Virus record (IMG/VR): IMGVR_UViG_3300045988_146023
Reading direction: 5' to 3' (one strand)
Length of the DNA stretch: 40,172 bases
DNA from: a virus
The translations under genes were made by a program, and so were the position numbers. Under the pieces are notes generated by a model. It had not been told where the DNA came from and made no database searches. It saw only the letters and a program-made list of their open reading frames with translations. Within the stretch, counting starts at the first letter, position 1. Every line of letters begins with the position of its first letter. This document shows positions 1 through 27,200 of this stretch, piece by piece.

Positions 1-99
1 CACAGAGAACGGGCAAAGGGGTTACAGTAAGTTTGCGGAAGCCTACTGTACCCCCTACTATAACATACAGTAGGAGGAAAATGCAATGATAAAACGGAA
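1..99 (+). repeat. Terminal direct repeat, copy 1 (identical to 40074-40172)
   Basis: Base-by-base comparison: cacagagaacgggcaaagg...gataaaacggaa is present at both ends. Confidence 0.97.
22..77. promoter_or_regulatory. TACAGTA boxes and a 9-bp inverted repeat overlapping the integrase SD
   Basis: TACAGTA occurs at 23-29 and 66-72, and inverted at 44-50. CCTACTGTA (42-50) and TACAGTAGG (66-74) form a perfect inverted repeat whose right arm overlaps GGAGG (73-77). Confidence 0.4.
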
Positions 100-1147
100 A
101 GATGGATTGTGGCAGGAGCGAATCTCTCTGCCGGGTATGGCAAAGCCCAAGTATTTCTATGCCAAGACCCAGAAGGAATTGAAGAAAAAGGTTGCTGCAT
201 GGAACCAGGATCAGGCGGCAGGGAAAACCTTTGAAGCCTGCGCCGATTCCTGGGACCGGTGGCATGAAGGGCAGGTGTCCTACAACGGGGCGGAAGCATA
301 TCGAGCCGCGATGAAGCGGACGAAGGAACAATTCAAGGGGCGCAGGATTGACGATATCCGGCCTGATGAAATAGACGCTTACATCCGATATCTGGCGGGG
401 AGGGGCTATGCTCGGCGGACGGTGCAACTCTATCTGGATATGCTGCGGATGATCTGGGACTATTCCATTGTCCAGGGGTGGACTACGTTCAACCCGTGCG
501 GGGCGGTAAAGCTGCCTAGTGGGCTGCCCAGGGGCCGGAGAGAGATGCCCAGCGACGAGCAGATAGAGCGCGTCAAGGCCGGGCTATTTCTCGACTTCGG
601 GTTATTCCCCTATTTCCTCCTGCATACTGGGATGCGTCGAGGGGAACTCCTGGCGCTGCGCTGGGAGGATATTGATCGGGAGCATAAGCTGATAACCGTA
701 AACAAGGCGGTTTATTTTGCTGGGAACACGCCCCAGATTAAAGCGCCGAAAACGGATAGCGGACGGCGGGAGATCGTCCTGCTGGATGCTCTGGCTGCCG
801 TTCTTCCAAAGGGTGGCAAAGGCTATGTGTTCGGCGGGGAGAAACCGCTGACAAAAATGCAGGTGCGGAAACGATGGCAGAGATGGTGCAGGGAGGCAGG
901 GCTGGCGACAGAGGAGGGCGTGGCTATGATCACGCCACACCAGCTGCGACACGCCTTCGCTACCATTCTGTTTGACGCTGGCATTGACGTCAAGGTGGCG
1001 CAAGAGCTGCTGGGACACTCCAGTATACAGGTCACGCGGGACATCTACACCCACATCCGAAAGAGCCGGATGGAGAACACGGCGGAGACGCTGAACAAGT
1101 ATTTATCTGGTGGTGCGTGTAAAAATAATGTAATTGAGCTCGCATGA
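86..1147 (+). CDS. int: Tyrosine recombinase / phage integrase
   Basis: 353 aa. The C-terminal catalytic region HQLRHAFATILFDAGIDVKVAQELLGHSSIQVTRDIYTH fits the R..H-x-x-R..Y pattern. SD GGAGG lies 8 nt upstream, and a tRNA fragment lies immediately downstream. Confidence 0.93.
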   Translation: MIKRKDGLWQERISLPGMAKPKYFYAKTQKELKKKVAAWNQDQAAGKTFEACADSWDRWHEGQVSYNGAEAYRAAMKRTKEQFKGRRIDDIRPDEIDAYIRYLAGRGYARRTVQLYLDMLRMIWDYSIVQGWTTFNPCGAVKLPSGLPRGRREMPSDEQIERVKAGLFLDFGLFPYFLLHTGMRRGELLALRWEDIDREHKLITVNKAVYFAGNTPQIKAPKTDSGRREIVLLDALAAVLPKGGKGYVFGGEKPLTKMQVRKRWQRWCREAGLATEEGVAMITPHQLRHAFATILFDAGIDVKVAQELLGHSSIQVTRDIYTHIRKSRMENTAETLNKYLSGGACKNNVIELA

Positions 1148-1168
1148 CCTGCTACGCAAGAAAACAAT

Positions 1169-1218
1169 TCTGCCTTTTAAGCAGGGTGTCCGGGGTTCGA
1201 ATCCCCGACGGGTCACCA
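1169..1218 (+). other. attP core candidate: 3' portion of a tRNA-Lys(UUU), from anticodon stem-loop to CCA
   Basis: TCTGC-CTTTTAA-GCAGG is an anticodon arm (anticodon TTT). It is followed by GTGTC, the T arm CGGGG-TTCGAAT-CCCCG, and ACGGGTC-A-CCA. The 5' side (1146-1168) has a near-complementary acceptor strand but no D arm, so this is a fragment and not a gene. Confidence 0.75.
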
Positions 1219-3389: not shown

Positions 3390-3467
3390 GCGTCGGCCTG
3401 CCTCATCAGCGCCGGGAGGCCGTTCCTCGGCGGACGCCCTGAAGGGCGTTTCGGCTGTTTACCACGC
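3390..3467 (-). ncRNA. Type II hammerhead ribozyme (HH-A)
   Basis: On the minus strand: AACAGCC-GAAA-CGCCC-UUCA-GGGCG-U-C^CGCCG..CGGCG-CUGAUGA-GGCAGGCCG. Core positions are CUGAUGA 3409-3403, GAAA 3452-3449, U16.1 3434 and C17 3433. Loop I CGGCCU (3422-3417) is complementary to AGGCCG (3399-3394). Confidence 0.85.
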
Positions 3468-4374: not shown

Positions 4375-4465
4375 CATCTAAGATATTAGACACATGTCGA
4401 AAAAGATTGAGGAAAATAATTTAAAATAAATTTGAAAAGCCCCTCCTTTCGGAAACCCTGGAATG

Positions 4466-4471
4466 TATAAT
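4466..4471 (+). promoter_or_regulatory. -10 candidate (TATAAT) for the packaging/late operon
   Basis: A perfect TATAAT preceded by TG, in the AT-rich spacer between the terminator and terS. No convincing -35 was seen. Confidence 0.3.
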
Positions 4472-4483
4472 TGATTCATACCC

Positions 4484-4517
4484 TTAGATTGGGAAAAGTC
4501 TAGATTTACTAGATTTC
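4484..4517 (+). repeat. Tandem CTAGATTT repeats just upstream of the terS SD
   Basis: CTAGATTT occurs at 4500-4507 and 4509-4516, with a third degenerate copy TTAGATTG at 4484-4491. Confidence 0.6.
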
Positions 4518-4536
4518 AGGAAGGGAGGTAAGCCAG

Positions 4537-4923
4537 ATGGCACAGACAAGAAAGGTAGAATCCGCTGAAAAGCTGATGAAATATATAGATGATTTCATTA
4601 AATACTGCGAGGAAAACGGTGAAATCCCTTCCAACTATAACCTCTGTAAATTCCTGTCGGTGAGTGCTGCGACACTGAGTAGGTATGAGGCGGGGGATGG
4701 GAATTATAAAGGATACGAAATCCCATTCAAAAACCTGCGGCAATACAGAGAGCACCGGCTGCTGAGTATGCTAGAGGGCGATCCCAAGAGAGCAGCAGCA
4801 GCGATCTTCCAGCTGAAACAGCCATTTAATGGAGGCTATGTGGAGTCCACGCAGCAGGTAGACCAGGGCGCAACCGTTACCCTCAAGATCGAGGGAGTGG
4901 GCGGAGTCGATGCTTTCAAGTAG
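4537..4923 (+). CDS. terS: Terminase small subunit
   Basis: 128 aa. The N-terminal HTH-like region (IDDFIKYCEENGEIPSNYNLCKFLSVSAATLSRY) and AAAAIFQLKQPFNGGY are typical of Firmicutes phage small terminases. It sits at the head of the packaging module. Confidence 0.7.
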   Translation: MAQTRKVESAEKLMKYIDDFIKYCEENGEIPSNYNLCKFLSVSAATLSRYEAGDGNYKGYEIPFKNLRQYREHRLLSMLEGDPKRAAAAIFQLKQPFNGGYVESTQQVDQGATVTLKIEGVGGVDAFK

Positions 4924-5045
4924 CAATTACAGACTGCTTGCTATATAAGCAAGTGCAAGCCCTTGCAGCACAACGGGTTGCGGCACCACTACAGAGATAT
5001 TACAGTATGCGGCGGGCTGGAGCAATCAGGCAGACCGGCCTGCAC

Positions 5046-5288
5046 GGGGGTGGCTGGGTGCAATAAGACCCTCCCGCCCCGGGGGTGGGGGTGGTGCAGC
5101 GCTGGCCGGTTTCGAGGTATACCCCCCTACCCCCCTACCTACCTACCAGGGGGGGTGTGGCGGAAAAAGTGGGGGCTGGCTTCCGGCAGGGGGTGTATAA
5201 GATAACCCCCATCCTCCAGACTTCCCCCCTCCAACATAGCTATCTATGATAACTATACAGGGGGTACCCGGAAAATCAGGGGGTACCC
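5046..5288. repeat. Array of GGGGGT boxes in both orientations, including two 12-bp direct repeats
   Basis: GGGGGT occurs at 5046, 5081, 5087, 5151, 5189, 5260 and 5279. Inverted copies are ACCCCCCT x2 (5121-5136) and ACCCCC (5205-5210). CAGGGGGTACCC occurs at 5258-5269 and 5277-5288. Confidence 0.7.
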
Positions 5289-5321
5289 AGAAGGAATGGG
5301 TCCCCAGGGTGAAATAGAAAT

Positions 5322-5370
5322 CGGGCTGTGTGAGAGGCGCACGAGACGGGTTCAAGTCCCGGAGGCCCGA
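5322..5370 (+). ncRNA. tRNA-like minihelix A (acceptor-like stem plus T arm, no cloverleaf)
   Basis: CGGGCU (5322-5327) pairs with GGCCCG (5364-5369). The T arm is CGGG-UUCAAGU-CCCG (5347-5361). A central hairpin GUGUG/CGCAC spans 5328-5342. There is no CCA. Confidence 0.4.
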
Positions 5371-5439
5371 AGCAGTTCTTGGGTGTTCTACCTCCTTTCG
5401 AGTGGGGGCAAGGGAAGACAGCCTTTGCCTCCCTCAAAT

Positions 5440-5485
5440 CGTCCGGCAGGTGCAAAGCCTGGTTCGATTCCAGGCCGGGCGGCCA
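5440..5485 (+). ncRNA. tRNA-like minihelix B (acceptor-like stem, T arm and encoded CCA)
   Basis: CGUCCGG (5440-5446) pairs with CCGGGCG (5475-5481). The T arm is CCUGG-UUCGAUU-CCAGG (5458-5474), followed by G-CCA. Only an 11-nt linker stands where the D and anticodon arms should be. Confidence 0.4.
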
Positions 5486-5653
5486 ACCCCGAAAGGGGAA
5501 TATCAAACAGAAAGGAAGTGAATTCTCTCCTTCGCTGCTTCCTTTCACATGGTTTGGTAACACATTGTCTTGTATGCTCTTTCGAGCTACCCGGCGCGCG
5601 GGAAAAGCCGGTTACAAACCCGCGACATGGCCCGAGGATTTAGGGCCATATAC

Positions 5654-5729
5654 GGTTCCCTATCTCAAGAGGCAGAGATCCCGGCTCATAACCGGGAATA
5701 TCCTGGTTCGAGGCCAGGGGGAACCACCA
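5654..5729 (+). tRNA. tRNA-Met (anticodon CAT), or tRNA-Ile2 if the C is lysidinylated
   Basis: Hand-folded cloverleaf. Acceptor GGTTCCC/GGGAACC; D stem TCTC/GAGA with loop AAGAGGCA; anticodon arm CCCGG-CTCATAA-CCGGG; variable loop AATAT; T arm CCTGG-TTCGAGG-CCAGG; discriminator A; encoded CCA. G1:C72 argues against an initiator. Confidence 0.85.
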
Positions 5730-5757
5730 GAATACAGAATACGGAACGGGAGGGAGC

Positions 5758-5901
5758 ATGGACAGAGACACGATACAGAGGATCCAGGCCCTTCTGAAAC
5801 GGGATGGGCGCGTGGAGCTCATTTCCGGGCCCAACGGGACGGTGAAGGTTGTGCAGATCAAGCGCAAGGTTGTTCTGGAGGGCAAGCTTACAGACGAATA
5901 G
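5758..5901 (+). CDS. Small hypothetical protein (47 aa), absent from the ORF track
   Basis: SD GGGAGGGAG lies 1 nt before ATG 5758. Sequence: MDRDTIQRIQALLKRDGRVELISGPNGTVKVVQIKRKVVLEGKLTDE. It is followed by a strong terminator. Confidence 0.5.
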   Translation: MDRDTIQRIQALLKRDGRVELISGPNGTVKVVQIKRKVVLEGKLTDE

Positions 5902-5936
5902 AGACCTCCCTGGGAATGGCTGGGGAGAAGGACCGA

Positions 5937-5982
5937 ACGGGGTCAACTTGTTGGAATTTCCGACAGGTTGGCCCCGTTTTTG
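5937..5982 (+). terminator. Strong rho-independent terminator 35 nt upstream of terL
   Basis: A 14-bp stem (5937-5950 with 5964-5977, two G-U pairs) followed by TTTTT (5977-5981). Confidence 0.8.
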
Positions 5983-6016
5983 CGTTTGGAGGTGAGGAGA
6001 GACGGCACGGCGAAGG

Positions 6017-7477
6017 ATGAGCAAGGTCCAGAAGAAGGACGTGGTCTGGGACCCGGGAGAAGCCAACGCGAAGCAGAAGCTGTTCTATCTCTCCCGAACA
6101 ACCTATACCGCTTATGGCGGGGCCAAGGGCGGCGGCAAGACCCATGCCGTTCGCATCAAGGCTGTGGGTGGGGCCATTGCCAACCCGGGCATCAAGATCC
6201 TCATCATGCGGCGGACCTATCCAGAATTGGAGGAAAACCACATCCGGCCCATTGTGAAGATGGTGCCGCCTGCGCTGGCCTCCTACAACGCCACCACCCA
6301 CCTGATGACCTTTCACAACGGGAGCACCATCAAGTTTGGCCATTGGAGCGGCGACGCCTCGGAGGATGAGTACAACGGCCTGGAATATGACTGGATTTTC
6401 ATCGACGAGGCCACGCAGTTTTCCGAGCGGAGTTTCAATTTCCTGGGCGGCTGCTTGCGCGGCGTGAACCAGTTCCCAAAGCGGATGTACCTCACCTGCA
6501 ACCCCGGCGGCGTCGGCCACCGGTGGGTGAAGCGGCTGTTCATTGACCGGCAGTTCAAGCAGAACTGCGACAACCCGGAAGAGAACGAGAATCCGGAGGA
6601 TTATACCTTCATCCCGGCGACGGTGGAGGACAACTACCACCTGATGGCCTCTTCCCCGGGGTATGTGCGGATGCTGGCGAACATGCCGGAGGATAAGCGG
6701 CGGGCCTACCGGTACGGCGATTGGAATGCCATCGGCGGGAACTTTTTCCCGGAATTCTCTACCGCGACCCACGTTGTGCAGCCGTTTCGCATCCCGGAGC
6801 ATTGGCAGCGGTACCGCAGTTTCGACTACGGCCTGGACATGTTCGCCTGCTTCTGGTGGGCGGTAGACGAAGACGGAAGGTCTTGGTGCTACCGGGAATT
6901 CACCCACAAGGGCCTCATTGTCAAAGAGGCGGCAGAGAAGATCCACGAGTTGACGCTGCCGGGAGAGCATGTTTCTGCCACCTATGCCCCGCCGGATATG
7001 TGGAGCCGGCAAAAAGACACCGGCAAGACCATGGCGGAGGTGTTCATGCTGAACCAGGTTGGCCTGATCCGGGCGGACAACAACCGGGTGCAGGGACACC
7101 TGATGATGAAGGAAGCGTTGGCCCCAAGGCCGCTGCGCGACCCCTATGTGCAGGCTATGTTCCGCCGGGAAGACGGGACGGCGCCGGACAAGCTGCCGGG
7201 CCTTATGTTCTTCGATGCCTGCAAAGAGGTTATCGGGGATATCCAGGATATCCAGGCGGACGAGAAAAACCCCAACGACTGTGCCAAGGACCCCCACGAA
7301 GTGACCCACACGGTGGACGGGGTGCGGTATTACTGCATTTCCCGTGTGCTGCCTGCACAGCCGGAGAAGGACGAGAAGAAGGTTGTCCTGTATGACGATG
7401 ACGAGGACAGCATGGAGAGCTACGAGGAGTTCATGGTAGGAAGCGGGGCCCCCAGCCCCAGCTATCTTGCGTTGTGA
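6017..7477 (+). CDS. terL: Terminase large subunit
   Basis: 486 aa. Walker A is YGGAKGGGKTH and Walker B is WIFIDEATQF. The C-terminal half is nuclease-like with conserved acidic residues. Confidence 0.92.
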   Translation: MSKVQKKDVVWDPGEANAKQKLFYLSRTTYTAYGGAKGGGKTHAVRIKAVGGAIANPGIKILIMRRTYPELEENHIRPIVKMVPPALASYNATTHLMTFHNGSTIKFGHWSGDASEDEYNGLEYDWIFIDEATQFSERSFNFLGGCLRGVNQFPKRMYLTCNPGGVGHRWVKRLFIDRQFKQNCDNPEENENPEDYTFIPATVEDNYHLMASSPGYVRMLANMPEDKRRAYRYGDWNAIGGNFFPEFSTATHVVQPFRIPEHWQRYRSFDYGLDMFACFWWAVDEDGRSWCYREFTHKGLIVKEAAEKIHELTLPGEHVSATYAPPDMWSRQKDTGKTMAEVFMLNQVGLIRADNNRVQGHLMMKEALAPRPLRDPYVQAMFRREDGTAPDKLPGLMFFDACKEVIGDIQDIQADEKNPNDCAKDPHEVTHTVDGVRYYCISRVLPAQPEKDEKKVVLYDDDEDSMESYEEFMVGSGAPSPSYLAL

Positions 7478-7487
7478 GGAGGACACT

Positions 7488-7787
7488 ATGGAAACCATTC
7501 TGTTTGGCATCGGAACTGCGCTTGCCCTTGTGTGTTTTGTCGTTCTGCTGGTGCTGGAGCACAAGAACGAAAAGCACCTGGATGAGTTGAGCACGCGCCT
7601 GGCCAGCATCTCCCTTAAAGTGCGAAGCCTTGAGAAGAAGGTAGAACACTTGGAACAGGTTTGGAAAGCGGAAGAGGGTGACCGAGAGACCCGGAAGAGA
7701 CAGGAGGAACTGCTGTTTACCGGGATCAACAACATCCTCAATTACGACATGAACGCAGCCAGAAAGGCAGGCGGTGACGATGCCTAA
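7488..7787 (+). CDS. Membrane-anchored coiled-coil protein (BhlA/UviB-like architecture)
   Basis: An N-terminal TM helix (ILFGIGTALALVCFVVLLVL) is followed by a charged coiled coil. SD GAGGAGG precedes ATG 7488. Confidence 0.6.
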   Translation: METILFGIGTALALVCFVVLLVLEHKNEKHLDELSTRLASISLKVRSLEKKVEHLEQVWKAEEGDRETRKRQEELLFTGINNILNYDMNAARKAGGDDA

Positions 7788-9552
7788 GAGAGAGAAAAAG
7801 CCGGACACTTCCGGCCTGAACACCTACTCCCTGGGGAAGGAGAGCAAGCTGCCGGACTGCGGGACGGCGTGGAAGTTGTACGAGCGAGGACTGGACTTCA
7901 ACTCCAGCATCAATCTGGAGGACACTGTCCGCGTCAACGAGAACTTCTTCATCGGGAAACAGTGGGAGGGCGTGATTTCCAACGGGCTTCCCACTCCCGT
8001 GTTCAACTTCCTAAAGCGGGTGTGCTGCTTCACGGTGGCGACCATCACCAGCGACAACATCAAGGTCAACGCTTCCCCACTGTCTGCGACGCCGAACACC
8101 ACGTCGCTTGTGGAGCCGGTTCGGATCATCAACGAGGAACTGGATGCGCTGACGGAGTTGAACAACATCCCGTCGCTGATGCGTGAGTTCGCCAGAAATG
8201 CCGCTGTGGATGGGGACGGGTGCCTTTACACCTGGTGGGACCCGGACGCGGAGACCGGGCAGGACGCCAAGGGGTGTATCCGAACCGAGATTGTAGAGAA
8301 TCTCCGGGTCCATTTCGGCAACCCCAACGACCGAGATGTGCAGAGCCAGCCGTGGATCATTCTGGAGCGGCGGGAAATTATCTCCGCAGCCCAGGCAGAG
8401 GCCAAGGAGAACGGCTTCGAGACCTGGCGGAACATCGGCGGGGACGGCGACAACACCAACCCGGACGCGGCCAAAGAGACCACGGACAAGGTGACCACCA
8501 TCCTGCTCTTCTGGCGGGACACCAAGACCCGCCACATCTGGGCGTACAAGTGCGCCCGGGGGTCCTCCATCCGGGAGCCGTGGGATTTGGGGATCAAGCT
8601 ATATCCCATTTCCTGGCTGAACTGGGACTACATCCAGGACTGTTTCCACGGGCAGGCCATGATTACCGGTCTGATTCCCAATCAGATTTTCGTAAATAAG
8701 CTCTGGGCCATGTCGCAGCTGTCCCTGATGACCACGGCATTTCCCAAGGTCGTGTACGACGCGACCAGGGTCGGAAAATGGGACAACCGGATTGGCGCTG
8801 CCATCGGGATCCAGGGCGGCGACGTGAACAACGTAGCCAAGATCATTGACCCGGCCAGCATCTCCCCGCAAATCTCCCAGTTCATTCAATTGGCGGTGGA
8901 GGAGACGGAGCAGAGTTTGGGCGCAACATCCGTTGCCCTGGGCGACACGCGGCCTGACAACACATCGGCCATCATTGCCTTGCAGCGGGCTGCCTCCACC
9001 CCGTCGGAGATTACAAAGCAAAACCTGTATAAGTCCATTGAGGACCTATACAGGATCTACATCGAGTTTATGGGCGAGTATTACGGCAAACGGTATGTGG
9101 ACATGACCACGCCGGAAGAAGTCCGGCAGGTCTATGACTTCATTGGACAGGAGACCCCGGCAGAGATTCCGATGCAGTTTGACTTTTCCCAGCTGAAAGA
9201 CATGCCCATGCACATCAAACTGGACATCGGGGCCAGTTCGTACTACTCGGAAATCGCCTCCATCCAGACGTTGGACAACCTGTTGAAGATGGGGAAGATC
9301 GACACCGTTCAGTATCTGGAGCGAATTCCCGACGGCTACATCCCAGGACGGAGAGAGCTCATCAACGAACTGAAAGAGCAGCAGAGAAACGCCATGGCTA
9401 TGCAGGCGCAGATGCAGCAGGGCGTCCCCCAGAACCCCGGCGGGGCCCCGGTGGCGGGAGACACCACAAAGGACGAGATCCCGACGGGAGGCGGATATTC
9501 CGCTTTGCAACGAAAGGTCAACGAGACCGGGACCACCGCAGGGATGGTTTGA
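7774..9552 (+). CDS. Portal protein (putative)
   Basis: 592 aa, located immediately after terL, with a Gln/Gly-rich C-terminal tail. The start is GTG 7774 or ATG 7780. The call rests on position, size and general resemblance only. Confidence 0.65.
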   Translation: MTMPKREKKPDTSGLNTYSLGKESKLPDCGTAWKLYERGLDFNSSINLEDTVRVNENFFIGKQWEGVISNGLPTPVFNFLKRVCCFTVATITSDNIKVNASPLSATPNTTSLVEPVRIINEELDALTELNNIPSLMREFARNAAVDGDGCLYTWWDPDAETGQDAKGCIRTEIVENLRVHFGNPNDRDVQSQPWIILERREIISAAQAEAKENGFETWRNIGGDGDNTNPDAAKETTDKVTTILLFWRDTKTRHIWAYKCARGSSIREPWDLGIKLYPISWLNWDYIQDCFHGQAMITGLIPNQIFVNKLWAMSQLSLMTTAFPKVVYDATRVGKWDNRIGAAIGIQGGDVNNVAKIIDPASISPQISQFIQLAVEETEQSLGATSVALGDTRPDNTSAIIALQRAASTPSEITKQNLYKSIEDLYRIYIEFMGEYYGKRYVDMTTPEEVRQVYDFIGQETPAEIPMQFDFSQLKDMPMHIKLDIGASSYYSEIASIQTLDNLLKMGKIDTVQYLERIPDGYIPGRRELINELKEQQRNAMAMQAQMQQGVPQNPGGAPVAGDTTKDEIPTGGGYSALQRKVNETGTTAGMV

Positions 9553-9570
9553 CCGAATGGGAGGTGCCAC

Positions 9571-9834
9571 ATGACGGAATGGGAAGTGGTTGGAGTCATT
9601 GTGGTCCTCGTTGGCCTCGTGATTTCCGTTGCCGGTCCAATGGTGAAGCTGAATTCCACCATCACGAGGCTGACGGTGCAGATGGCGAATTTCACCCAGG
9701 GATTGGAGGAATTCAAGGACCGATACAAGGACCAACTCAAGGAGTTTAAGGACGTACACGAAGACATTTACGAAAAGGTGGACGATCACGAGCACCGAAT
9801 TACGGTGCTGGAGGAAAGGAGGGAGGACCGATGA
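9571..9834 (+). CDS. Holin-like / BhlA-like membrane protein
   Basis: 87 aa with an N-terminal TM helix (VVGVIVVLVGLVISVAGPMV) and a coiled-coil tail. It sits directly upstream of the holin and amidase. Confidence 0.5.
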   Translation: MTEWEVVGVIVVLVGLVISVAGPMVKLNSTITRLTVQMANFTQGLEEFKDRYKDQLKEFKDVHEDIYEKVDDHEHRITVLEERREDR

Positions 9835-10049
9835 GCGAGAAATGGAAACTCTGGTGGAAGGCTGCCGGGGTGCGGGCCATCAAGACCATGGCTCAAACCG
9901 CTGTCGCCACCATCGGCGCAGCCGCTGTGTTGTCTGACGTTAACTGGGTCATGGCGGTGTCTGCCGCTGTGCTGGCTGGGGTGCTGTCTCTGCTGACCTC
10001 CGTTGCGGGGCTCCCCGAAGTCAAGCAGGAGGTGAGTACCGGTGAGTAA
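9831..10049 (+). CDS. Holin (r1t/LL-H-type)
   Basis: 72 aa. WWKAAGVRAIKTMAQTAVATIGAA... and the second TM ending LSLLTSVAGLPEV match the pattern of r1t-type holins. It overlaps the amidase start. Confidence 0.7.
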   Translation: MSEKWKLWWKAAGVRAIKTMAQTAVATIGAAAVLSDVNWVMAVSAAVLAGVLSLLTSVAGLPEVKQEVSTGE

Positions 10050-10818
10050 CAGTAAACTCGTTGCATACACGAAATTGTCCCCTCACTGTACGAAGCCCAG
10101 ACAGGGGAAAATCAAGGGCATCTCCATCCATACGATGGCTGGCCCTGGCAGTGTGGAGGGCTGTGGTCAGGTATTCCAGCCCTCCGAGGCATCCAGCCAT
10201 TACGGCATTGGCCCAGATGGGCGAATTGGCCAGTACGTTCTGGAGGAAAATCGGGCCTGGTGCTGCTCCCACAAGGTGGACCATGAGGTGGTAACCATTG
10301 AGGTCTCCAGCATCCAGAGTTATCAGGAGCCTTATGAATGCACCGACGCAGCCTTTGAGAGCCTGATTAACCTGTGCGTGGACATCTGCCAGCGCAACGG
10401 CATCCGGGAACTCATCTGGAAGGAGGGCAAACAGTATTGCCCCGCGTTTACCGGCGACTGGGCCGTGTGCAACATGGTCCCCCACCGATACACCACAGAC
10501 AAGGGCAAGAGCTGCCCGGGAAACTATCTGTTTGGGAAATATGGCGAGATCGCAAAACTTGTCAATGCGCGACTGAAAGGAGAGGACGAGGACATGGACA
10601 TCAATAAGCTGCTCCAGGAAATGACCGACGAGCAGGCCTATCAGATTTACCAGAAGGCCATCCAGCACATAGTGACCCTGCCGGAGCCGGAGTGGTCCCA
10701 GGAGGAGGGGGCCTGGAAGAAGGCCAAGGAAACCGGTGTCATGGACGGCACCAGCCCGGAACGCCCCCTGAAACGGGATGAGTTCGCGGCTGTTCTGGAC
10801 CGGAAGGGGCTGCTGTGA
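10042..10818 (+). CDS. N-acetylmuramoyl-L-alanine amidase (endolysin, Amidase_2/PGRP type)
   Basis: ISIHTMAG...ASSHYGIGPDGRIGQYVLEENRAW...TIEV... is an amidase_2 signature. Starts at GTG, 10 nt after GGAGG. Confidence 0.85.
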   Translation: MSNSKLVAYTKLSPHCTKPRQGKIKGISIHTMAGPGSVEGCGQVFQPSEASSHYGIGPDGRIGQYVLEENRAWCCSHKVDHEVVTIEVSSIQSYQEPYECTDAAFESLINLCVDICQRNGIRELIWKEGKQYCPAFTGDWAVCNMVPHRYTTDKGKSCPGNYLFGKYGEIAKLVNARLKGEDEDMDINKLLQEMTDEQAYQIYQKAIQHIVTLPEPEWSQEEGAWKKAKETGVMDGTSPERPLKRDEFAAVLDRKGLL

Positions 10819-21252: not shown

Positions 21253-24200
21253 TTGCCGTTGAACATGAAACTTGGCGTGATGACGCCGGACGAATGGCTC
21301 CAAAACACCGTTGGCCAGGCGAACAAGAACAAGGGAAATTCTTCCAGTTCCAGTAAAAAGCCCTCTTCCAATCCGGCAAAATCATCTTCCAGCAAGAACA
21401 ACGGGGTGTTTACCGGAAACTTTGCAAAGGACTTCGAGACCCGGAAGAACATTCAAAAGAAGCAAAATTCCTATGGAGCGAAGCTAGGTAAGGCAGCATA
21501 CGACACCCAGGCAAAGCGGCTCCAGGATAAAATTGACAGCGCCAGAGACGGAAATGCCCGGACGCGGTACCAAAATCAGTTGGCGGAACTGCGTGCTCGG
21601 GCAAACGCTACCCTTCCCGGCGGCCTTGCTGGGATGGAGGAGGCGGAGGAAAGGGAAACCTCCGCCGCACAGCGCCGAGCCCCCCGGGAGCAGCGAGAGC
21701 GTCAGGCGAAGATTGACGCACTGAACGAAAAGTTAAGCAAGACCACAGACCGCCGGACCCGGGCGGCTTACCGGCAGGAGATCCGAGACCTGGAATACCC
21801 TCTGAGTGCATCGGACCAGCGGTTGGGCCACCTCTCCCGAGACATTATCCAGGATGCCAAGGAGCAGTATGACGAGGGAACGCAGCTGATCCGGGAAGGG
21901 TTTGAGGAAGAGGGGCGGCGGATCCAGGAGCAGGCCCACCTCATGGCGGAGTACCAGCGGGCATTGGCCGGGTATTCCGGCGGCGGAAGCGGGGAGGACC
22001 GCTTTGTCCCTGAACTGACCGCGCAGGAAAACCAGATTATGACCGCCGAAGGAAAGCAGGCCCTTCGTGCGGCCAAACGGCTGTATGAACTGGGGGAAGA
22101 GACCGGAAACGAGGAACTGAAAGAGACGGGCCGGATCCTGGGGCAGAATGTCCGTCTAACCCAGAACAGCTACGACCTGGACAAGATCCGGGAATTGCGG
22201 TCTAAAGAGCCCACCGTGAAACGCACCGACGCCCACGGGCGGCCGATTTACACCCCCACGGAACTGGAGGCAGAGGGGCAGAGGAACTTTTTTCCCGCCA
22301 TTTGGAATCAGATTACAGGCTCCCTCCTCAGCCTTGGAGAGGCTGCCCATGCCGCCACGCGGGAGGCCATCAGCAACCGGAACAATACAGCATACCAGAG
22401 CAACCAGGATGCCGCTGCTTACTGGGACAGACAGGCCAGAACGGCCCAGACAGAGGAAGCCAGAAAACAGGCGGAAGAGAACGCCCAGAAGGCTCGGGAG
22501 ATGGTAGAACAACTCCGGGCCAAGGAGGAAGTGCATCCCTGGTCGGAGGGCCAGTGGAGGCTTCGCCAGGCGGCCCAGCAGCAGGAAACGGTACAGAACA
22601 GCATCGACAGCCCCTTTGGGCGGCTGGTGAACCAGGCCGCCATGTCTGCCCTGGGGATGGCCCCGGCCCTGGGCCTTTCCGCCGTGGCCGGTCCTGCTGC
22701 CGGTGCCGCGCTGATGGGTGCCCAGGCCGCAGGCGGCAAGGCCGGAGAACTGCTGTCCAGAGGGGAGTCTGGCACGGAGGCCCTTGGACGCGGTCTTGTC
22801 TCTGGTGCCATTGAAGGAGTTACGGAGAAAATCCCCATCGGGAACCTGGTGCGCATTGCCAGGGGCGCCGGCGGTGCATCCTGGCTGCGGAACATGGCTC
22901 GTCAAGCAGGGATTGAGGCCACGGAGGAATCGGCATCCTATGCCCTGAACTATGCCGCCGACGTGGCGGCCAGGGACCCGGAGGCGGAATTTTCTCTGCA
23001 AGACCTGTTGGAAGGGGCGGCTGTGGGTGCCCTTACCGGCGGGGCATTGGGCGGCGGCGCGTCCGCGCTTTCGGGCGGGACCACGGCTGCCAGGGGAAGA
23101 ACCAGAGGAGGGACTGCCGCCGCGCAGGACGCAGCTAGACGGGCGGTACAGGAGGTCACCCGGGAGACCCAGGCGCAAATGCCGAGCGCCCCAGAGAACC
23201 CTCTGCTCCAGACTATCCAGGAGACCCGACGGGAACAGGAGCAGGCGGCGAGAATGGAGCCGGAGGAACCCCAGGGGCCCCAGTCGGTCCTCAATCAGGT
23301 GGTGGAACAGGCTGCCGCTGAGCGGAACGCCAGACGGGAGGCAGATACGGCCCCCGCACAGGAAGCGCCTCAAACCCTGGCGGAACGGGAAGCCAGATAC
23401 CAGCAGCGGTACCAGGACTATATGCAGCGGGCCCGGGCCGCAGCGGAGGACCCGTCTCTGCAAACGCCTGAGAATTACCAGGCGCTGCGGTTGGAACTGG
23501 ATGAGATCCAGAATGAGTACAACGGGATCCTCCAGGCCCGGCGGGTAGAGTCCGGGGAGGTTTCCACAGACTACAACACCCCGGAAAACCATATCGACAA
23601 CCGGACCACCGAGGATGTGGAAAACCGGTCCGTCAAAGCCTTCCAGTTTGACTATCCCCAGCTGCACCCCTACTATGTCCAGGCGGCCCAGGCTCTGATG
23701 GAGGACGCCAACTGGAGCCTGGAAACCCAGAGTAACCAGAAGGGCAAGGGGACGGTGGCCCGGTATTCCGAGGCCCTGGAGCGGGCGGCGAACCTGGGCC
23801 TCTCCCGCCAGGAGATCATCCGGGTGTGCCAGGACATTATTACAGACCGGGGGCAGGAGAACTACGCCGCCGCCAAGAAGGTGGAACTGATCCTGGACCA
23901 GATGCTTTCGGAGGGATACACCCCCAACGAAGCCCTGGGGAACCCGGACCAGCGGGTGGGCCCTAATGAAGCCTATCTACAGACGAAGGAGGCCATTCCC
24001 GGGGCGGTGACAAGGGATTCCTTCGAGCACTACCTGCGGCAAAATGCACTTGCCATGGATGCCGGGGAGGTGACGGAGGAGCAGCTTCGGCAGGAGTGGG
24101 AGGCGCGAAGAACAAACGAAGAGAGCGATGGTATGTCCTTCTGGACCGGCGCCCGTCAAGGCAGCTCCGGAGACATAACATCGCCCTCTGCGAACAGAGT

Positions 24201-27200
24201 ACAGGAAAACGAAAGAACTGTCAATAACAATGTGCTTCAAAAAGTGGCAGAGCATCAAGACGAAATTTCTGCGCACGGGACAGTATCTGAGTTGACGGGG
24301 AATGAGTTTTCTGATGTTCACACCAGAAAAGAGATCGAAAACGCAGTCACGGAGTTTTACCAAGAAATCGGGGCTGTAGACAGGCCCGGGTTTGGTACTG
24401 TACGTCTAGGCCGCCGAGGGGTAAAGGACAGTTTGGCTCACGGGTATGGCCAGAAGAAGATTGCGGCCTTCGCTTCGGTCCCTGACGTTATTCAGGATGG
24501 CGTACAAATCGACTATCAGCCGAACTGGAAGGGACGCGACTATGATACTTATATTATTGCTGGAGATGTAACTATTGGTGGAGAGCCAAACACGGTTGGC
24601 GTTGTTTTGATTCGAAGAAAGAATGACAGCCGATTCTACCTCCATGAAGTCACAACGACAAAAAATGGAGACGCAACGTCGTTCCAAACCGGGGCCACCG
24701 AAGAAACTTCGGCCCGCTTACCCGGCGACGTTACATCTCCTATGGATATTATACAGGATCGAGGTGCAACTGTCAATCCCGAGTTGCCGGAGGAGCAAGC
24801 TCGGTACAGCGTGGGCGCAGCTCCTAGTGGATTTGACCCGTATTCCCGGATGCTGAATGAATACGGGGCTATTGCACCGGGCGAGAAACCGGCGCGGATG
24901 GTGGACGTACCACGCAGTACCGACGGACAAGACCGGGTACGTCAGTCTGCCAGAACATTCATGGAAGCGGAAGCCACTCCGGATGCACTGGTGAATTTGT
25001 TCCAGCAGGGCGTAGTGAACAAGGAGTGGTCCTATAATCCGAAGAAGGACAAAGCTAGTGTGGACCGGGCCATGGGCATTCTGCGTCAAAGGGACGGCTT
25101 CCAGAATGGCCTGAACCAATGGAATGAAATGGTTTCCACCGGACGGCAGGCTACAAAGGACGATGTGGTCATGGCGCAGATGATCTATAAAGCCGCAGCC
25201 AATGCCGGAGACTATGAAACTGCTGGACGGCTGGCGGGTGAGATTGCTGCACTTGGTACCATTTCCGGGCAAAATATTCAGGCGCTTCGTCTGCTGAAAC
25301 GAGCCACGCCGGAAGGAAAACTGTTTTATATCCAGAAGGGCGTTGACCAGGTCAACGATACGATGGAGAAAAAATACGGGGAGGGTTTCCATGGTATCGA
25401 GGTCCCGGATGAACTGTACCAGCAGTACATGAACGCTGAGACCAATGAAGCCCAGATTGCGGCCCTAGATGCCATCTATGACTATGTGGCGGAGCGCGTC
25501 CCCCGCACTTTTGGGGATGCTTTGGATACCTGGCGTTATTTCGCCATGCTGGGAAATCCTCGCACACATATCCGAAACGTCCTGGGCAACGTTATCATGC
25601 AGGGGCCGATCCAGGCACGAAACGCACTTTCTGCGGGACTACAAAACGCTCTGCTCCCTCAAGAACAGAGGACCCGCTCTGTGGGGGCCAACCGTGCCAC
25701 CAGGGACTTTGCGCGACAGGATTTTGAAGCCAACAAGGATGTCCTTCGAGGTAATCCTTACACTACGCCGGAAGGCGGAGAGATTATGCGTCGGGTCCGA
25801 GAAAAGGGACTGACCGTTGACAAGGGGAAACAGGAGCGCAGTGCCTTCTGGCGTGGCGTTAACACGATGTTGAAGCCGCTTCAAGGAGCCGCTTCTGCAA
25901 ACAGTAACTTGATGGACTTTGAGGACATGGTTTTCAAGAAGAGCACTTATATCAACAGTCTGTCGAACTTCTTGAAAGCCAGGGGTTATGACCCATCTAC
26001 ACAGGACATCCCGGAAAATGTGTTGGAAGAAGGTCGGGGGCAGGCTATCGAGGATGCGCTGGAATCCACTTTCCAGAATTATTCCTCCCTTGCGAGCAAA
26101 CTGGCAGAGTTAGAGAGCTCCAGCAGAGCGGCCAAACTGGTGATTGGCGGCCTTATGCCCTTTAAGAAAACCCCCATCAATATTACGAAACGAAGCATTG
26201 AGTTTTCCCCTATTGGCTTGTTCCGTGGTATGCACCAGTGGTTGAGCAAAGTGCCAAAGGGAGAGACCACCGCAGCGGAAGCGCTAGACAACATTGCAGC
26301 AGGCATTACCGGTTCCGGCATCGTTGCTATCGGTGCTTTTCTGGCGTCTCAGGGACTGATTAACGCAGGAGACGATGAAGATGACCGGCTCCGCGATTTT
26401 GGCGTAGCGCAAGGATCTCAGGAGTATTCCTTGAACGTCGGGGATTATTCCTATACCATTGACTGGGCGGCACCGTCTGTCATTCCTCTCTTCCTTGGGG
26501 TGGAGGGATACAATGCCTTCAAACGTCTTCTGGATGAGCAGGAAAACGAGGATAGCCCCGGGTTCTTTACAGAAACCGTCAATGCCATTTCCCGCATGTT
26601 TGAACCCATGATGAACATGACCATGCTTTCTGGCCTCAGTGGGGCAATTCAGAGCGCAGCATACAATCAGGCTAACCCGATTATCGGGATTGGCTCCAAC
26701 GTGGCGCAGAATTTCCTTGGGCAAGTGTTCCCTACCCTGTCCGGACAGATTGCCCGCACCATCGACGATACCCGCCGGACAACCTTTTATGATAAGACCA
26801 CGGACGTTCCAAAGGGTTTGCAGACCTTCCTTCAAACTCAAATGAACAAGATCCCCGGCCTATCCCAAAGAAACCCGGCTTGGCTGGATAGTTGGGGGCG
26901 GGCCGATGTCACGGAAAACCCCCTCGTTCGTTTTCTGGAAAACTTCCTTTCTCCCGGCTACATTGCAGAACGTAACACGGATGATGTGGATACCGAATTG
27001 CAACGTCTCTATGACCTCGGGGAAGAAGGTGTTTTGCCGAAGAACCCGGAGAAGAGCGCAGAGGTGGATGGCAAACGCCTCACCGCCGAACAGTGGCAAA
27101 CCTATGCTCAGACAAAGGGTTCGGAGTCTCGGGACATGTTGGAGGGAATTATATCTTCCCCGCAGTATCAGGAGTTGTCCGACCAGGATAAGGCGAAGGT

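What the first reader, a model, noticed from the sequence alone, without database searches (positions are those of the whole stretch)
4924..6016. A 1.1-kb non-coding, structure-dense island splits terS from terL
terS and terL are normally adjacent or overlapping. Here they are separated by 1,093 bp whose track ORFs are G/R/P-rich junk. The island contains, in order:
- Two short hairpins right after terS (4934-4975).
- A G-run/C-run repeat field (5046-5288).
- An AT-rich patch with the palindrome ATAGCTAT (5236-5243).
- Two tRNA-like minihelices.
- A CCCC-GAAA-GGGG tetraloop hairpin (5487-5498).
- An 8-bp hairpin (5511-5545) and further hairpins (5597-5624, 5629-5647).
- A canonical tRNA-Met.
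- A 47-aa ORF and a strong terminator.

This looks like a dedicated RNA locus inside the packaging module. Possibilities are processed small RNAs, a packaging-related RNA or DNA site, or an inserted moron.
Basis: partly seen in the sequence, partly recalled or inferred. Interest (0 to 1): 0.7.

Follow-up and report, generated by a model that had tools for sequence, protein, structure and literature searches.

The report
Control region and RNA cargo before terminase
The 1.1-kb gap between the two terminase genes of this gut (Oscillospiraceae-type) phage is a composite control region made of a widely conserved DNA control element, swappable tRNA and tRNA-like RNAs, a tiny conserved gene, and a conserved RNA switch (Rfam gut-2) overlapping a strong terminator just before the large terminase gene.

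Summary

It is not one RNA locus. It has four modules.

1. 4937-5316 is a DNA element found in more than 140 related phage contigs. It always lies upstream of terL in terL orientation, wherever terS sits. A GC-rich tract is followed by the box GGGGTRG-CGGAAAAA-S-GGGG, a TATAAT-like hexamer about 35 nt later, and a second box about 110 nt downstream. I read it as an activator-dependent promoter region; a pac site is the main rival.
2. 5317-5729 is exchangeable RNA cargo. It holds tRNA-like elements that lack an anticodon arm (one has an encoded CCA and compensatory changes), hairpins and a true tRNA(CAU). The cassette also occurs elsewhere, without terL.
3. ORF47 is a conserved small protein of unknown fold.
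4. Rfam gut-2 (5903-5950) has a 3' hairpin that shares bases with a 20-bp intrinsic terminator 33 nt before terL. This is an attenuator design, with strong covariation.

A terminator directly before terL recurs in 54 of 98 relatives. The mechanisms are inferred, not shown.

The parts
4537..4923 (+). terS-like gene (P22 gp3-type small terminase), upstream neighbour of the island
   Evidence: 17 of 21 family members hit Pfam GP3_package, best E=2.8e-7. No PHROG or PDB sequence hit. Its position relative to the element and to terL varies among relatives.
4937..4985 (+). Two hairpins or inverted repeats right after terS. They are present only in lineages where terS lies directly upstream.
   Evidence: HMM positions 1-50 are conserved in groups A, B, L013-19 and L023. 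No U-run follows. Function not determined.
4937..5316 (+). Family-wide conserved non-coding DNA element ('ELEM') at the head of the terL operon
   Evidence: Iterative nhmmer finds it in 72 of 123 terL loci, always on the + strand and upstream of terL by 99 nt to 4.9 kb. A 16-mer scan found 71 further contigs of the family. The window has only one intergenic exact copy of GCGGAAAAA.
5150..5176 (+). Box 1: GGGGGGTGTGG-CGGAAAAA-GTGGGGGC (family consensus ggggt.gCGGAAAAAcgGggGgc)
   Evidence: Anchored alignment of 57 distinct sequences in 38 lineages. The spacer after it is not a conserved hairpin.
5196..5201 (+). TATAAG, a -10-like hexamer 35 nt after the start of CGGAAAAA, followed by a CACAC/TCCAGAC-like conserved stretch (5206-5221)
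   Evidence: TATAAT-like matches are enriched only at +26..+50 after box 1. Mean best score is 4.54 and 20 of 37 lineages reach 5/6 or better, against 0-6 lineages in ten control windows. No -35 hexamer was found by the consensus scan.
5269..5289 (+). Box 2: CGGAAAA-TCA-GGGGGTACCC, a second copy of the box 108 nt downstream of box 1
   Evidence: A second box is present at +67..+214 in 20 of 37 lineages. About 20 contigs carry two full 16-mers 81-135 nt apart as direct repeats.
5321..5370 (+). tRNA-like element 1: 6-bp acceptor-like stem, one hairpin, 4-bp T-like arm with loop TTCAAGT. Weakly supported.
   Evidence: Read from the sequence. One G-U to A-U change in the hairpin. Rfam mascRNA hit at chance level, E=7.9. 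Fails the strict T-arm plus acceptor scan.
5440..5485 (+). tRNA-like minihelix 2: 7-bp acceptor stem, 11-nt connector, 5-bp T arm (TTCGATT loop), discriminator G and encoded CCA. No D arm and no anticodon arm.
   Evidence: Strict scan. All cells are paired, and 3 pairs change on both sides among 5 distinct sequences, including L220.
5487..5647 (+). Hairpin series: CCCC-GAAA-GGGG 5487-5498, GAAAGGAAG/CTTCCTTTC 5510-5546, 5597-5624 and 5629-5647. It travels with minihelix 2 as one cassette.
   Evidence: Nearly invariant in group A, 1-3 variable columns per 50 nt. Group B keeps a hairpin of different sequence at the first position and the motif ACAGAAAGGAAGTGAA. The same block is 91% identical in the unrelated context of L220.
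5654..5729 (+). tRNA with CAU anticodon (Met or Ile2 type; G1-C72, so not an initiator), CCA encoded
   Evidence: ARAGORN. Rfam tRNA 52.6 bits. Relatives at this position have Ile(TAT), Ser(TGA), Lys, Gln or Thr.
5758..5901 (+). ORF47, a conserved 47-aa protein with a strong Shine-Dalgarno (GGGAGGGAGC before the ATG)
   Evidence: 19 homologue clusters of 44-51 aa. phrog_29211, function unknown. Diverged homologues of 27-49% identity sit at the same position in groups B, L244 and L340. AF2 model has pLDDT 77, helix plus 3 strands, with no PDB fold match.
5903..5950 (+). gut-2 RNA (Rfam RF02990): two hairpins (5906-5913/5920-5927 and 5931-5934/5941-5944) with RAAYGG-type loops
   Evidence: 47.0 bits against a gathering score of 39.8. 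My own covariance model finds it in 15 group A and B loci plus L060, L244 and L340, always 50-110 nt before terL. 10 of 12 pairs change on both sides and 96.9% of cells are paired.
5935..5984 (+). Intrinsic terminator: about 20-bp stem, -33.7 kcal/mol, then TTTTTGCGTTT. Its 5' arm overlaps loop 2 and the 3' strand of gut-2 hairpin 2. It ends 33 nt before the terL ATG.
   Evidence: 5 pairs change on both sides between groups A and B. A terminator 7-62 nt before terL occurs in nearly all of the 54 of 98 distinct relatives that have one.
6017..7477 (+). terL, the gene controlled by the island
   Evidence: Pfam Terminase_3 and Terminase_6N. The portal gene follows at 7774-9552.

Best explanation
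The gap is the cis-control region and transcribed leader of the packaging/late operon of a temperate Oscillospiraceae-type phage. It has been colonised by RNA cargo. Steps marked 'shown' rest on tool results. The rest is inference.

1. **The conserved DNA element.** Shown: 4937-5316 is conserved across the phage family, has a fixed orientation and lies upstream of terL. It consists of a GC-rich tract, box 1, a -10-like hexamer at a fixed offset, and box 2. Inferred: it is a promoter that lacks a -35 hexamer and depends on a protein bound to the boxes (centred near -45 and about +75). Transcription would start near 5207.
2. **The RNA cargo.** Shown: the next 400 nt carry tRNA-like elements without an anticodon arm, hairpins and a real tRNA. 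This block is exchangeable between close relatives and also occurs as a cassette elsewhere. Inferred: RNase P, RNase Z and the CCA enzyme recognise the tRNA-like modules. That would cut the leader into stable small RNAs and release the tRNA.
3. **ORF47.** Shown: ORF47 is a real, conserved small gene. Its stop codon lies 4-6 nt before gut-2 in four lineages.
4. **The switch.** Shown: gut-2 and a strong terminator are both conserved with covariation, and they share bases, so they cannot form together. Inferred: by default the roughly 780-nt leader transcript ends at 5984. Read-through into terL, portal and the rest occurs when the gut-2 fold is stabilised or remodelled. The trigger would be either ORF47 protein binding the two RAAYGG loops or a ribosome stopping at the ORF47 stop codon. 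This resembles a RAT/BglG-type or leader-peptide attenuator, and it would delay terminase and late-gene expression.
For: **Element distribution and orientation.**
- Found in 72 of 123 terL loci and in 71 further contigs; never on the other strand and never downstream of terL.
- Independent of terS position.
- Where it lies 4 kb from terL, the intervening genes are all on the + strand.

**Promoter-like features.**
- TATAAT-like hexamer enriched only at +26..+50 after box 1.
- Sharp shift in composition at the box, from AT 0.2-0.3 upstream to 0.5 or more downstream.
- The spacer is not a conserved hairpin, and 5205-5320 has no excess folding energy. This points to recognition at the DNA level.
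- The box is nearly invariant, although terS proteins of the same loci are only 28-35% identical with divergent helix-turn-helix regions.

**Cargo.**
- The gap is 432 to about 2,070 bp, with six tRNA identities among relatives.
- A 280-bp insertion or deletion holding a third tRNA-like element separates phages with 99% identical terL.
- The same cassette sits behind a sigma-70-type promoter in L220.
- The strict scan gave 93 T-arm plus acceptor hits against 2 or fewer in shuffles. Of these, 23 lie outside called tRNAs, and 22 of the 23 are on the + strand in terL leaders, in four sequence families.
- Compensatory changes in minihelix 2.

**Switch.**
- Rfam gut-2 scores above its gathering score.
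- Covariation in gut-2 and in the terminator, with a shared GGUC/AGCU segment in groups A, B, L060, L244 and L340.
- Terminators precede terL in 54 of 98 relatives, mostly 17-62 nt before the start codon, which leaves no room for a promoter.
- ORF47-like proteins precede gut-2 in 4 of 5 lineages.
Against: - No transcript data, so the promoter, start site, processing and read-through are all inferred.
- The consensus sigma-70 scan finds no promoter in the island.
- No activator, sigma factor or Q/RinA/ArpU-type regulator was found among about 26 window ORFs scanned.
- RHH and terS lie upstream of the element on the same strand. The cargo could therefore be co-transcribed from a promoter near 3850, and the element could be something else.
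- A box at about +75 is unusual for an activator. Two direct repeats flanking an AT-rich patch also fit a pac site.
- Contig ends are enriched just upstream of box 1: 17 of 77 against 2.6 expected.
- L060 has gut-2 plus a terminator but no ORF47, so ORF47 is not obligatory.
- The ORF47 fold gave no hint of RNA binding.
- Minihelix support rests on only 5 distinct sequences.
Confidence: 0.5

Rival explanations
1. The conserved element (4937-5316) is the packaging initiation (pac) region. The small terminase oligomer would bind the two direct-repeat boxes, and terL would cut in or near the AT-rich patch or the GC-rich tract. The tRNA cargo and the gut-2/terminator are then simply co-transcribed with terS. 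This rival concerns module 1 only and could coexist with a promoter, as is reported for the SPP1 pac region (my recollection, not checked here).
For: - One copy per genome, next to terS and terL, with fixed orientation.
- Two boxes 81-135 nt apart flanking an AT-rich patch, each with an A5 tract.
- P22-type terS and portal imply headful packaging from a pac site.
- Contig ends are enriched within 600 nt upstream of box 1: 17 of 77, expected 2.6, and only 2 downstream.
- terS lies upstream of the element in the window, so no promoter is needed there.
Against: - The box is nearly invariant across lineages whose terS is 28-35% identical or undetectable, with divergent helix-turn-helix regions. 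pac sites normally co-vary with terS.
- In P22-like phages pac lies inside the terS gene (textbook knowledge); here the element is outside it and can lie 1.5-3 kb from terS.
- The TATAAT-like hexamer at a fixed offset has no role in this model.
- Most large contigs (39 of 43) do not end there, and the end positions scatter over 7-574 nt. The GC-rich, low-complexity, variable tract could break assemblies by itself.
Confidence: 0.3
2. The whole island, or 4924-5650, is one large structured non-coding RNA of the GOLLD/ROOL kind. These are phage-borne, lie next to tRNAs, and have an unknown function of their own.
For: - Location next to a tRNA in a phage.
- Many hairpins.
- + strand folding z=-2.8 for 5300-5655.
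- 5367-5566 is as conserved as the coding genes among close relatives.
Against: - No Rfam large-RNA family matches even at E up to 10.
- The 5' 400 nt are conserved as a linear motif without a conserved fold.
- The region is modular. Its halves occur separately: the element alone in L013-16 and L026, and the cassette alone in L220.
- Close relatives differ by 280-670-bp replacements.
Confidence: 0.05
3. The middle part is evolutionary debris: a decaying tRNA array or moron insertion hot spot whose tRNA-like pieces are pseudogenes with no function. Only the tRNA, the terminator and perhaps the promoter matter.
For: - Extreme variability of the segment among relatives.
- The shortest relatives (L013-16, 432-bp gap) do without any tRNA or tRNA-like element.
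- CCA is mutated to CAA in L001 and L003.
- Minihelix 1 is imperfect.
Against: - Four independent sequence families all keep a perfect 7/7 acceptor stem, a 5-bp T stem and the T-loop consensus, and all lack exactly the anticodon arm.
- Compensatory changes keep minihelix 2 paired.
- 5367-5566 varies no more than the coding genes do.
- The cassette is maintained at 91% identity in an unrelated context.
Confidence: 0.1

Closest known systems
Lambdoid late control region (pR' - tR' with Q antitermination), especially in Stx phages, where tRNA genes and morons sit between the late promoter/terminator and the late genes
   Same: - A dedicated control region at the head of the late operon.
- A strong terminator that must be read through to reach packaging and structural genes.
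- tRNA and moron cargo in the leader.
- A short leader RNA made by default.
   Different: - No Q homologue and no sigma-70 -35/-10 promoter were found.
- The boxes lie near -45 and about +75.
- The terminator sits directly in front of terL and is coupled to a local RNA switch (gut-2) rather than to promoter-proximal RNA polymerase modification. The mechanism was not tested.
Rfam RF02990 gut-2 RNA motif (Weinberg et al. 2017, PMC5737381; an orphan motif from human gut metagenomes that is not discussed in the main text of that paper)
   Same: It is a member: full-length match above the gathering score, with both hairpins showing covariation.
   Different: What is added here is the context. gut-2 lies 50-110 nt upstream of terL in at least 5 phage lineages, overlaps an intrinsic terminator, and is usually preceded by a 44-47-aa ORF.
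Protein- or ribosome-mediated transcription attenuators: BglG/SacY-RAT, PyrR, TRAP, and trp-type leader peptides
   Same: A small hairpin element whose 3' strand is also the 5' base of a terminator. There are two similar loops (RAAYGG) as possible protein sites, and an upstream short ORF ends 4-6 nt before the first hairpin.
   Different: No homology to any of these proteins or RNAs. ORF47 is a conserved protein rather than a codon-sensing leader peptide. The effector is unknown.
pac regions of headful phages (SPP1 pacL/pacC/pacR, P22 pac)
   Same: Single copy, next to the terminase genes, with repeated boxes and A-tracts flanking a central region.
   Different: It lies outside terS, and its sequence is invariant across divergent terS proteins. 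Physical ends were not determined.
tRNA-like RNAs processed with tRNAs: phage T4 species 1 and 2 RNAs in the tRNA cluster, mascRNA from MALAT1, and candidate tRNA-like structures in IMG/VR phages (PMC10690425)
   Same: An acceptor-like stem plus T arm embedded in a longer transcript next to true tRNAs. Such modules are expected substrates of RNase P, RNase Z and the CCA enzyme.
   Different: These elements lack the anticodon arm, and minihelix 2 also lacks the D arm (42 nt). There are four unrelated sequence families in one phage group. No Rfam family matches them, and processing was not tested.
GOLLD / ROOL large phage-associated RNAs
   Same: Phage-borne, adjacent to tRNAs, rich in hairpins.
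   Different: No covariance-model match. The region is modular and variable rather than one conserved fold.

Membership tests
Rfam gut-2 (RF02990) | Covariance-model score at or above the curated gathering score over the full model | tested here: met
   47.0 bits against 39.8, model positions 1-48 of 48, at 5903-5950. The same holds in L001, L003, L008 and L022.
Rfam gut-2 (RF02990) | Two hairpins maintained by compensatory changes | tested here: met
   10 of 12 pairs change on both sides and 96.9% of cells are paired over 5 lineages. The alignment is fitted to the model, but slid controls give 26-51% paired.
Canonical tRNA | Cloverleaf with acceptor, D, anticodon and T arms | tested here: met
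   5654-5729: ARAGORN tRNA-Met(CAT) and Rfam tRNA 52.6 bits.
Canonical tRNA (applied to the two 'minihelices') | Presence of an anticodon arm; detection by ARAGORN or the Rfam tRNA model | tested here: not met
   Neither is called at default settings. At an 85% threshold ARAGORN proposes a different, unconvincing 5319-5404 'tRNA-Leu'. 5440-5485 has only an acceptor stem, an 11-nt connector and a T arm.
Intrinsic (Rho-independent) terminator | GC-rich stem-loop directly followed by a U-run | tested here: met
   5935-5979, 20 pairs, followed by TTTTTGCGTTT. Energy -33.7 kcal/mol. Covariation between groups A and B.
Transcription attenuator / riboswitch-type expression platform | Conserved alternative structure that shares nucleotides with the terminator stem | tested here: met
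   The 3' strand of gut-2 hairpin 2 (5941-5944) and its loop lie inside the terminator's 5' arm. This overlap is kept in groups A, B, L060, L244 and L340.
Transcription attenuator / riboswitch-type expression platform | Regulated read-through in response to an effector | not testable with these tools
   Needs in vitro or in vivo termination assays.
Sigma-70-type promoter | -35 and -10 hexamers with 16-18-nt spacing | tested here: not met
   The consensus scan finds none on the + strand of 4400-6200. Only a -10-like hexamer at a fixed offset from box 1 is present.
Activator-dependent (-35-less) late promoter | Conserved -10 element plus a conserved protein site around -40 to -55; activity dependent on a phage factor | tested here: inconclusive
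   The sequence architecture fits. No factor was identified, and there are no transcript data.
pac site | Terminase-dependent cleavage or genome ends at the site; terS binding | tested here: inconclusive
   The only proxy is contig-end enrichment upstream of box 1 (17 of 77 against 2.6 expected), which assembly fragility could also explain. Binding and cleavage cannot be tested here.
Lambda Q-type antitermination | A Q-family protein gene next to the late promoter | tested here: not met
   No Q/antiterminator Pfam family among about 26 window ORFs. The genes upstream of the element are the RHH-like gene and terS.
GOLLD / ROOL / other large Rfam RNAs | Covariance-model match | tested here: not met
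   No hit at the gathering threshold on the window or at E up to 10 on 4800-6100.
Small terminase (P22 gp3 family) | Match to PF16677 and position in the packaging module | tested here: inconclusive
   The window protein is below Pfam's cutoff (19.6 bits against 29.4), but 17 of 21 homologues match, best E=2.8e-7. It is always adjacent to terL or the element.

The most novel reading that the evidence does not exclude
The 3' end of the island is a previously unrecognised phage antitermination switch. A 44-47-aa protein (ORF47 family) or its terminating ribosome acts on the orphan gut-2 RNA to open a strong terminator and license expression of terminase and the late genes. The leader in front of it produces anticodon-arm-less tRNA mimics, some ending in CCA. 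These mimics would have a function of their own, for example as decoys for tRNA-targeting defence nucleases or tRNA-binding host factors, or as RNase P/Z punctuation that sets the stability of the late mRNA.
Probability: 0.25. Interest if true: 0.75.

Novelty: new variant of a known kind. Interest (0 to 1): 0.55.

Why it matters
**An orphan RNA gets a testable job.** gut-2 now has a genomic context and a hypothesis: an attenuator in the leader of the large-terminase gene, usually paired with a tiny conserved protein.

**A control element for uncultured phages.** The analysis defines a conserved box-plus-(-10) element that marks the start of the packaging/late operon in a large group of uncultured gut Oscillospiraceae phages. 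That helps in annotating operon starts, and possibly pac sites, in metagenomic phage genomes.

**tRNA-like RNAs without an anticodon arm.** Four sequence families of these RNAs recur at this spot. If they are made and matured, they bear on the current debate about why phages carry tRNAs: codon supply, or evasion of tRNA-cleaving defence systems (PMC10264068, PMC11464382, PMC11555353).

**A recurrent terminator.** A terminator directly in front of terL occurs in more than half of the relatives. This suggests that antitermination control of packaging genes is common in these phages.

Tried and rejected
- **Phage GenBank records (blastn).** Only short terL and tRNA matches and no annotated relative.
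- **Rfam.** At E up to 10 on the island, nothing beyond tRNA and gut-2. The mir, CRISPR-DR, SAM-IV and mascRNA hits are at chance level.
- **ARAGORN variants.** Relaxed, mitochondrial, intron and tmRNA modes gave no credible extra tRNA or tmRNA.
- **16-mer ACAGAAAGGAAGTGAA in viral contigs.** Mostly chance Shine-Dalgarno-like hits, but it produced L220.
- **ORF47 function.** No Pfam family; the only PHROG hit (phrog_29211) has no known function. The AF2 model has pLDDT 77, and Foldseek against the PDB gave no match below E=0.6. No function inferred.
- **terS against PDB sequences with a profile.** Only spurious hits.
- **Search for a late regulator.** Pfam and PHROGs on about 26 ORFs found integrase, HNH, a DnaJ domain, a G39P-like loader, a MazF-like protein, an S24 repressor and DUF739, but no sigma, Q, RinA or ArpU type.
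- **RNA-structure reading of box 1 and its spacer.** The C-run/G-run pairings and spacer hairpins are not conserved across lineages, and 5205-5320 has z=+0.2. Rejected for box 1. Box 2 often sits in a C-run/G-run hairpin loop reminiscent of lambda boxB, but not consistently.
- **Coding potential of 4924-5650.** The ORFs are not conserved, and relatives differ by indels whose lengths are not multiples of three.
- **Contig ends as a proxy for genome termini.** The enrichment is real but ambiguous.
- **gut-2 in Weinberg 2017.** The main text does not mention it, and no supplements are held.
Full report
**What is there.**
- The terS-like ORF ends at 4923 and terL (Terminase_3/6N) starts at 6017. 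The portal gene follows at 7774.
- The window is a temperate phage. It has an integrase next to a tRNA-Lys at its left end, and an S24 repressor, a DUF739 protein and leftward replication genes at its right end.
- terL relatives are mostly binned to Oscillospiraceae MAGs, including integrated copies in Mb-scale contigs.
- Tools add two curated hits inside the island: tRNA(CAT) at 5654-5729 and Rfam gut-2 at 5903-5950 (47.0 bits, gathering score 39.8).
- The 'terS' label is acceptable but soft. The window protein is below Pfam's cutoff, yet 17 of 21 homologues match GP3_package.

**The gap is variable, and terS is not the partner that matters.**
- Among 122 loci fetched through terL, the terS-terL distance varies widely:
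  - 432 bp in L013-16;
  - about 926 bp in L017/19;
  - 1,093 bp in the window and L011;
  - about 1,375 bp in L001, L002, L005 and L007;
  - 1,617 bp in L003/4;
  - about 2,070 bp in L021/22.
- The resident tRNA is Met, Ile, Ser, Lys, Gln or Thr.
- Phages with 99% identical terL differ by a 280-bp block inserted just before the tRNA, or by a 670-bp replacement.
- In other lineages the terS-like gene lies downstream of terL, or between the conserved element and terL.

**Module 1: a conserved DNA element (4937-5316).**
- Distribution:
  - Iterative nhmmer starting from the seven closest copies shows that the first roughly 380 nt of the island are homologous across the family. I found 72 of 123 sequences with the element, always on the terL strand and always upstream of terL, 99 nt to 4.9 kb away.
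  - A scan of viral contigs with GGGGTRGCGGAAAAAS added 71 more contigs with the same neighbourhood: a DnaJ-like gene on the opposite strand upstream and terL downstream.
- Anchoring 57 distinct copies on CGGAAAAA gives this order:
  - a very GC-rich tract (AT 0.20-0.29);
  - box 1, consensus ggggt.gCGGAAAAAcgGggGgc;
  - a variable 12-16-nt spacer;
  - a TATAAT-like hexamer 31-37 nt after the start of CGGAAAAA;
  - then CACAC..TTCAGAG-like sequence.
- The TATAAT-like signal is specific to that offset. Mean best score is 4.54 and 20 of 37 lineages reach 5/6 or better, against 0-6 lineages in ten control windows.
- A second box follows at +67..+214 in 20 of 37 lineages. In about 20 contigs both boxes are complete 16-mers 81-135 nt apart.
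- In the window these features are box 1 at 5150-5176, TATAAG at 5196-5201 and box 2 at 5269-5289.
- The spacer and flanks do not keep a common hairpin, and 5205-5320 folds no better than shuffles. The conservation is that of a linear DNA motif.

*Promoter or pac?*
- I favour a -35-less, factor-dependent promoter at the head of the late operon, for these reasons:
  - the -10-like hexamer sits at a fixed offset;
  - the orientation is strict, with only + strand genes between the element and terL even when they are 4 kb apart;
  - the box is invariant, although the terS proteins of the same loci are only 28-35% identical with divergent helix-turn-helix regions.
- A pac site is a serious rival, for these reasons:
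  - there is one copy per genome;
  - two direct repeats flank an AT-rich patch;
  - the packaging proteins are of the P22 type;
  - contig ends are enriched just upstream of box 1 (17 of 77 within 600 nt, 2.6 expected, only 2 downstream).
- That enrichment comes mainly from short contigs. It scatters over 7-574 nt and could reflect assembly breaks in the GC-rich, low-complexity, variable tract.
- No sigma-70 consensus promoter and no known late regulator were found.

**Module 2: exchangeable RNA cargo (5317-5729).**
- I ran a strict scan requiring a T loop of TTCRANY, a 5-bp T stem and a 7/7 acceptor pairing directly after the T arm.
  - It gave 93 hits in the 123 sequences, against 2 or fewer in shuffles.
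  - 70 hits are ARAGORN tRNAs. Of the 23 others, 22 are on the + strand inside terL leaders.
- The 23 fall into four sequence families, and all lack an anticodon arm:
  - the window's 42-nt minihelix (5440-5481, followed by G-CCA);
  - a 64-nt element with acceptor, D and T arms in the 280-bp block that the window lacks;
  - a 66-nt element with ACCA in group B;
  - a 57-nt element in L017-19.
- Minihelix 2 is paired in every sequence, with three pairs changed on both sides.
  - The key variant comes from L220. There the block 5426-5650, the 280-bp block and the tRNA-Met sit 91% identical behind TTGACT-N18-TACAAT and a perfect palindrome, in a contig region without terL.
  - The block is therefore a mobile cassette.
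- Group B keeps the same order: a tRNA-like element with CCA, a hairpin of unrelated sequence, then ..ACAGAAAGGAAGTGAA...
- 5300-5655 folds with z=-2.8 on the + strand. Among close relatives, 5367-5566 varies no more than terL does.
- Minihelix 1 (5321-5370) is weaker: a 4-bp T stem, and it is not found by the scan.
- That these modules are processed by RNase P and RNase Z is inferred from what is known of tRNA-like substrates. It is not shown.

**Modules 3 and 4: ORF47, gut-2 and the terminator.**
- ORF47:
  - It has a strong ribosome-binding site and 19 homologue clusters.
  - Diverged counterparts (27-49% identity, 44-47 aa) sit at the same place in groups B, L244 and L340.
  - Its predicted fold is a helix plus three strands, and it matches nothing in the PDB.
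- gut-2:
  - It starts 4-6 nt after the ORF47 stop codon.
  - A covariance model built from groups A and B finds gut-2 in all 15 group A and B loci that have ORF47. It also finds more distant copies in L060, L244 and L340, always 50-110 nt before terL.
  - Over five lineages, 10 of 12 pairs change on both sides.
- Terminator:
  - The 20-bp terminator (5935-5979, -33.7 kcal/mol, followed by a U-run) also covaries between groups A and B.
  - Its 5' arm contains loop 2 and the 3' strand of gut-2 hairpin 2 in every lineage inspected. The two folds therefore exclude each other.
  - Only 33 nt, including the ribosome-binding site, separate the U-run from the terL ATG. terL must be transcribed through the terminator.
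  - A strong terminator before terL, 7-62 nt upstream in nearly all cases, is present in 54 of 98 distinct upstream regions across the whole family, with unrelated stem sequences.
- I infer an attenuator. The two candidate effectors are ORF47 protein binding the two RAAYGG loops, or the ribosome terminating at the ORF47 stop codon. L060 lacks ORF47, so the protein cannot be universally required.

**Comparison with known systems.**
- Functionally, the layout most resembles the lambdoid pR'-tR' late control region, including the tRNA and moron cargo seen in Stx phages. No Q-type protein or sigma-70 promoter is present.
- The switch resembles RAT/BglG-type or leader-peptide attenuators, without homology to either.
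- gut-2 is a true member of RF02990. The original paper's main text does not discuss it.
- A survey of IMG/VR reported uncharacterised candidate RNAs upstream of large-terminase genes, and tRNA-like candidates in phages (PMC10690425).
- GOLLD/ROOL membership is rejected.

**Verdict.** The island is the operon-head control region plus RNA cargo plus an attenuator. It is a new variant of known kinds, with three new leads:
- a context and hypothesis for gut-2;
- a family-wide box element;
- recurrent tRNA mimics that lack an anticodon arm.

All mechanistic steps remain inferences that need end-mapping and termination assays.

Noticed in passing
window 3392-3456 (- strand); L008 1350-1414, L022 879-943, L057 2515-2579 (hammerhead II); L020 1625-1688, L023 1940-2006 (twister-P5); L052 2927-2991 (pistol): A type II hammerhead ribozyme lies between two leftward genes next to the DnaJ-domain gene. 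Related phages carry hammerhead, twister or pistol ribozymes near the same gene, so different self-cleaving classes are interchanged at one genomic position.
   Followed up: partly
window 86-1218: A tyrosine-type integrase (PHROG 1) abuts a tRNA-Lys(TTT) gene. This is probably the attachment region of the prophage.
   Followed up: no
window 5680-5700 compared with L001 3420-3497 and L011 4636-4713: In phages more than 95% identical across the island, only the anticodon arm of the tRNA differs: CAT in the window, L002 and L005, TAT in L001 and L011. The acceptor, D and T arms are kept. This looks like targeted diversification of the anticodon arm.
   Followed up: partly
L021 and L022, 4197-5001: terL is interrupted after residue 70 by about 800 nt that hold a 225-aa Cys-rich ORF, possibly a homing endonuclease or intron-type insertion. 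No group I intron hit in Rfam.
   Followed up: partly
window 5391-5400 and 5510-5518: ACCUCCUUUC is identical, from memory, to the anti-Shine-Dalgarno 3' end of 16S rRNA. It is complementary to GAAAGGAAG 110 nt downstream, and the MFE fold pairs the two. CCUCCUUU-like motifs recur in the leaders of L008, L017, L020 and L220.
   Followed up: no
L220 (IMGVR_UViG_3300045988_111375), reverse strand about 9330-10180: The cassette of minihelix 2, hairpins, tRNA-like element and tRNA-Met sits behind TTGACT-N18-TACAAT and a 44-nt perfect palindrome. The contig shares other genes with the window but has no terL nearby.
   Followed up: partly
L029 6839-6922: A tRNA with a CTA anticodon (amber-suppressor type, which ARAGORN labels 'Pyl') lies directly after the terS-like gene of a related phage.
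   Followed up: no
upstream of box 1 in 77 related contigs (window equivalent about 4600-5150): Contig ends pile up within 600 nt upstream of box 1: 17 observed, 2.6 expected, and only 2 downstream. Either physical DNA ends or an assembly-fragile GC-rich tract would explain this.
   Followed up: yes
window 21253-28005; 33269-33589 (-): A 2,250-aa ORF in the structural region has no PHROG family hit. A MazF/PemK-like toxin gene lies among the leftward early and replication genes.
   Followed up: no
L080 857-4403 and L110 2421-5753: In some lineages four + strand genes of unknown function are inserted between the conserved element and terL. The last has a CHB_HEX_C/Fn3-associated domain.
   Followed up: partly
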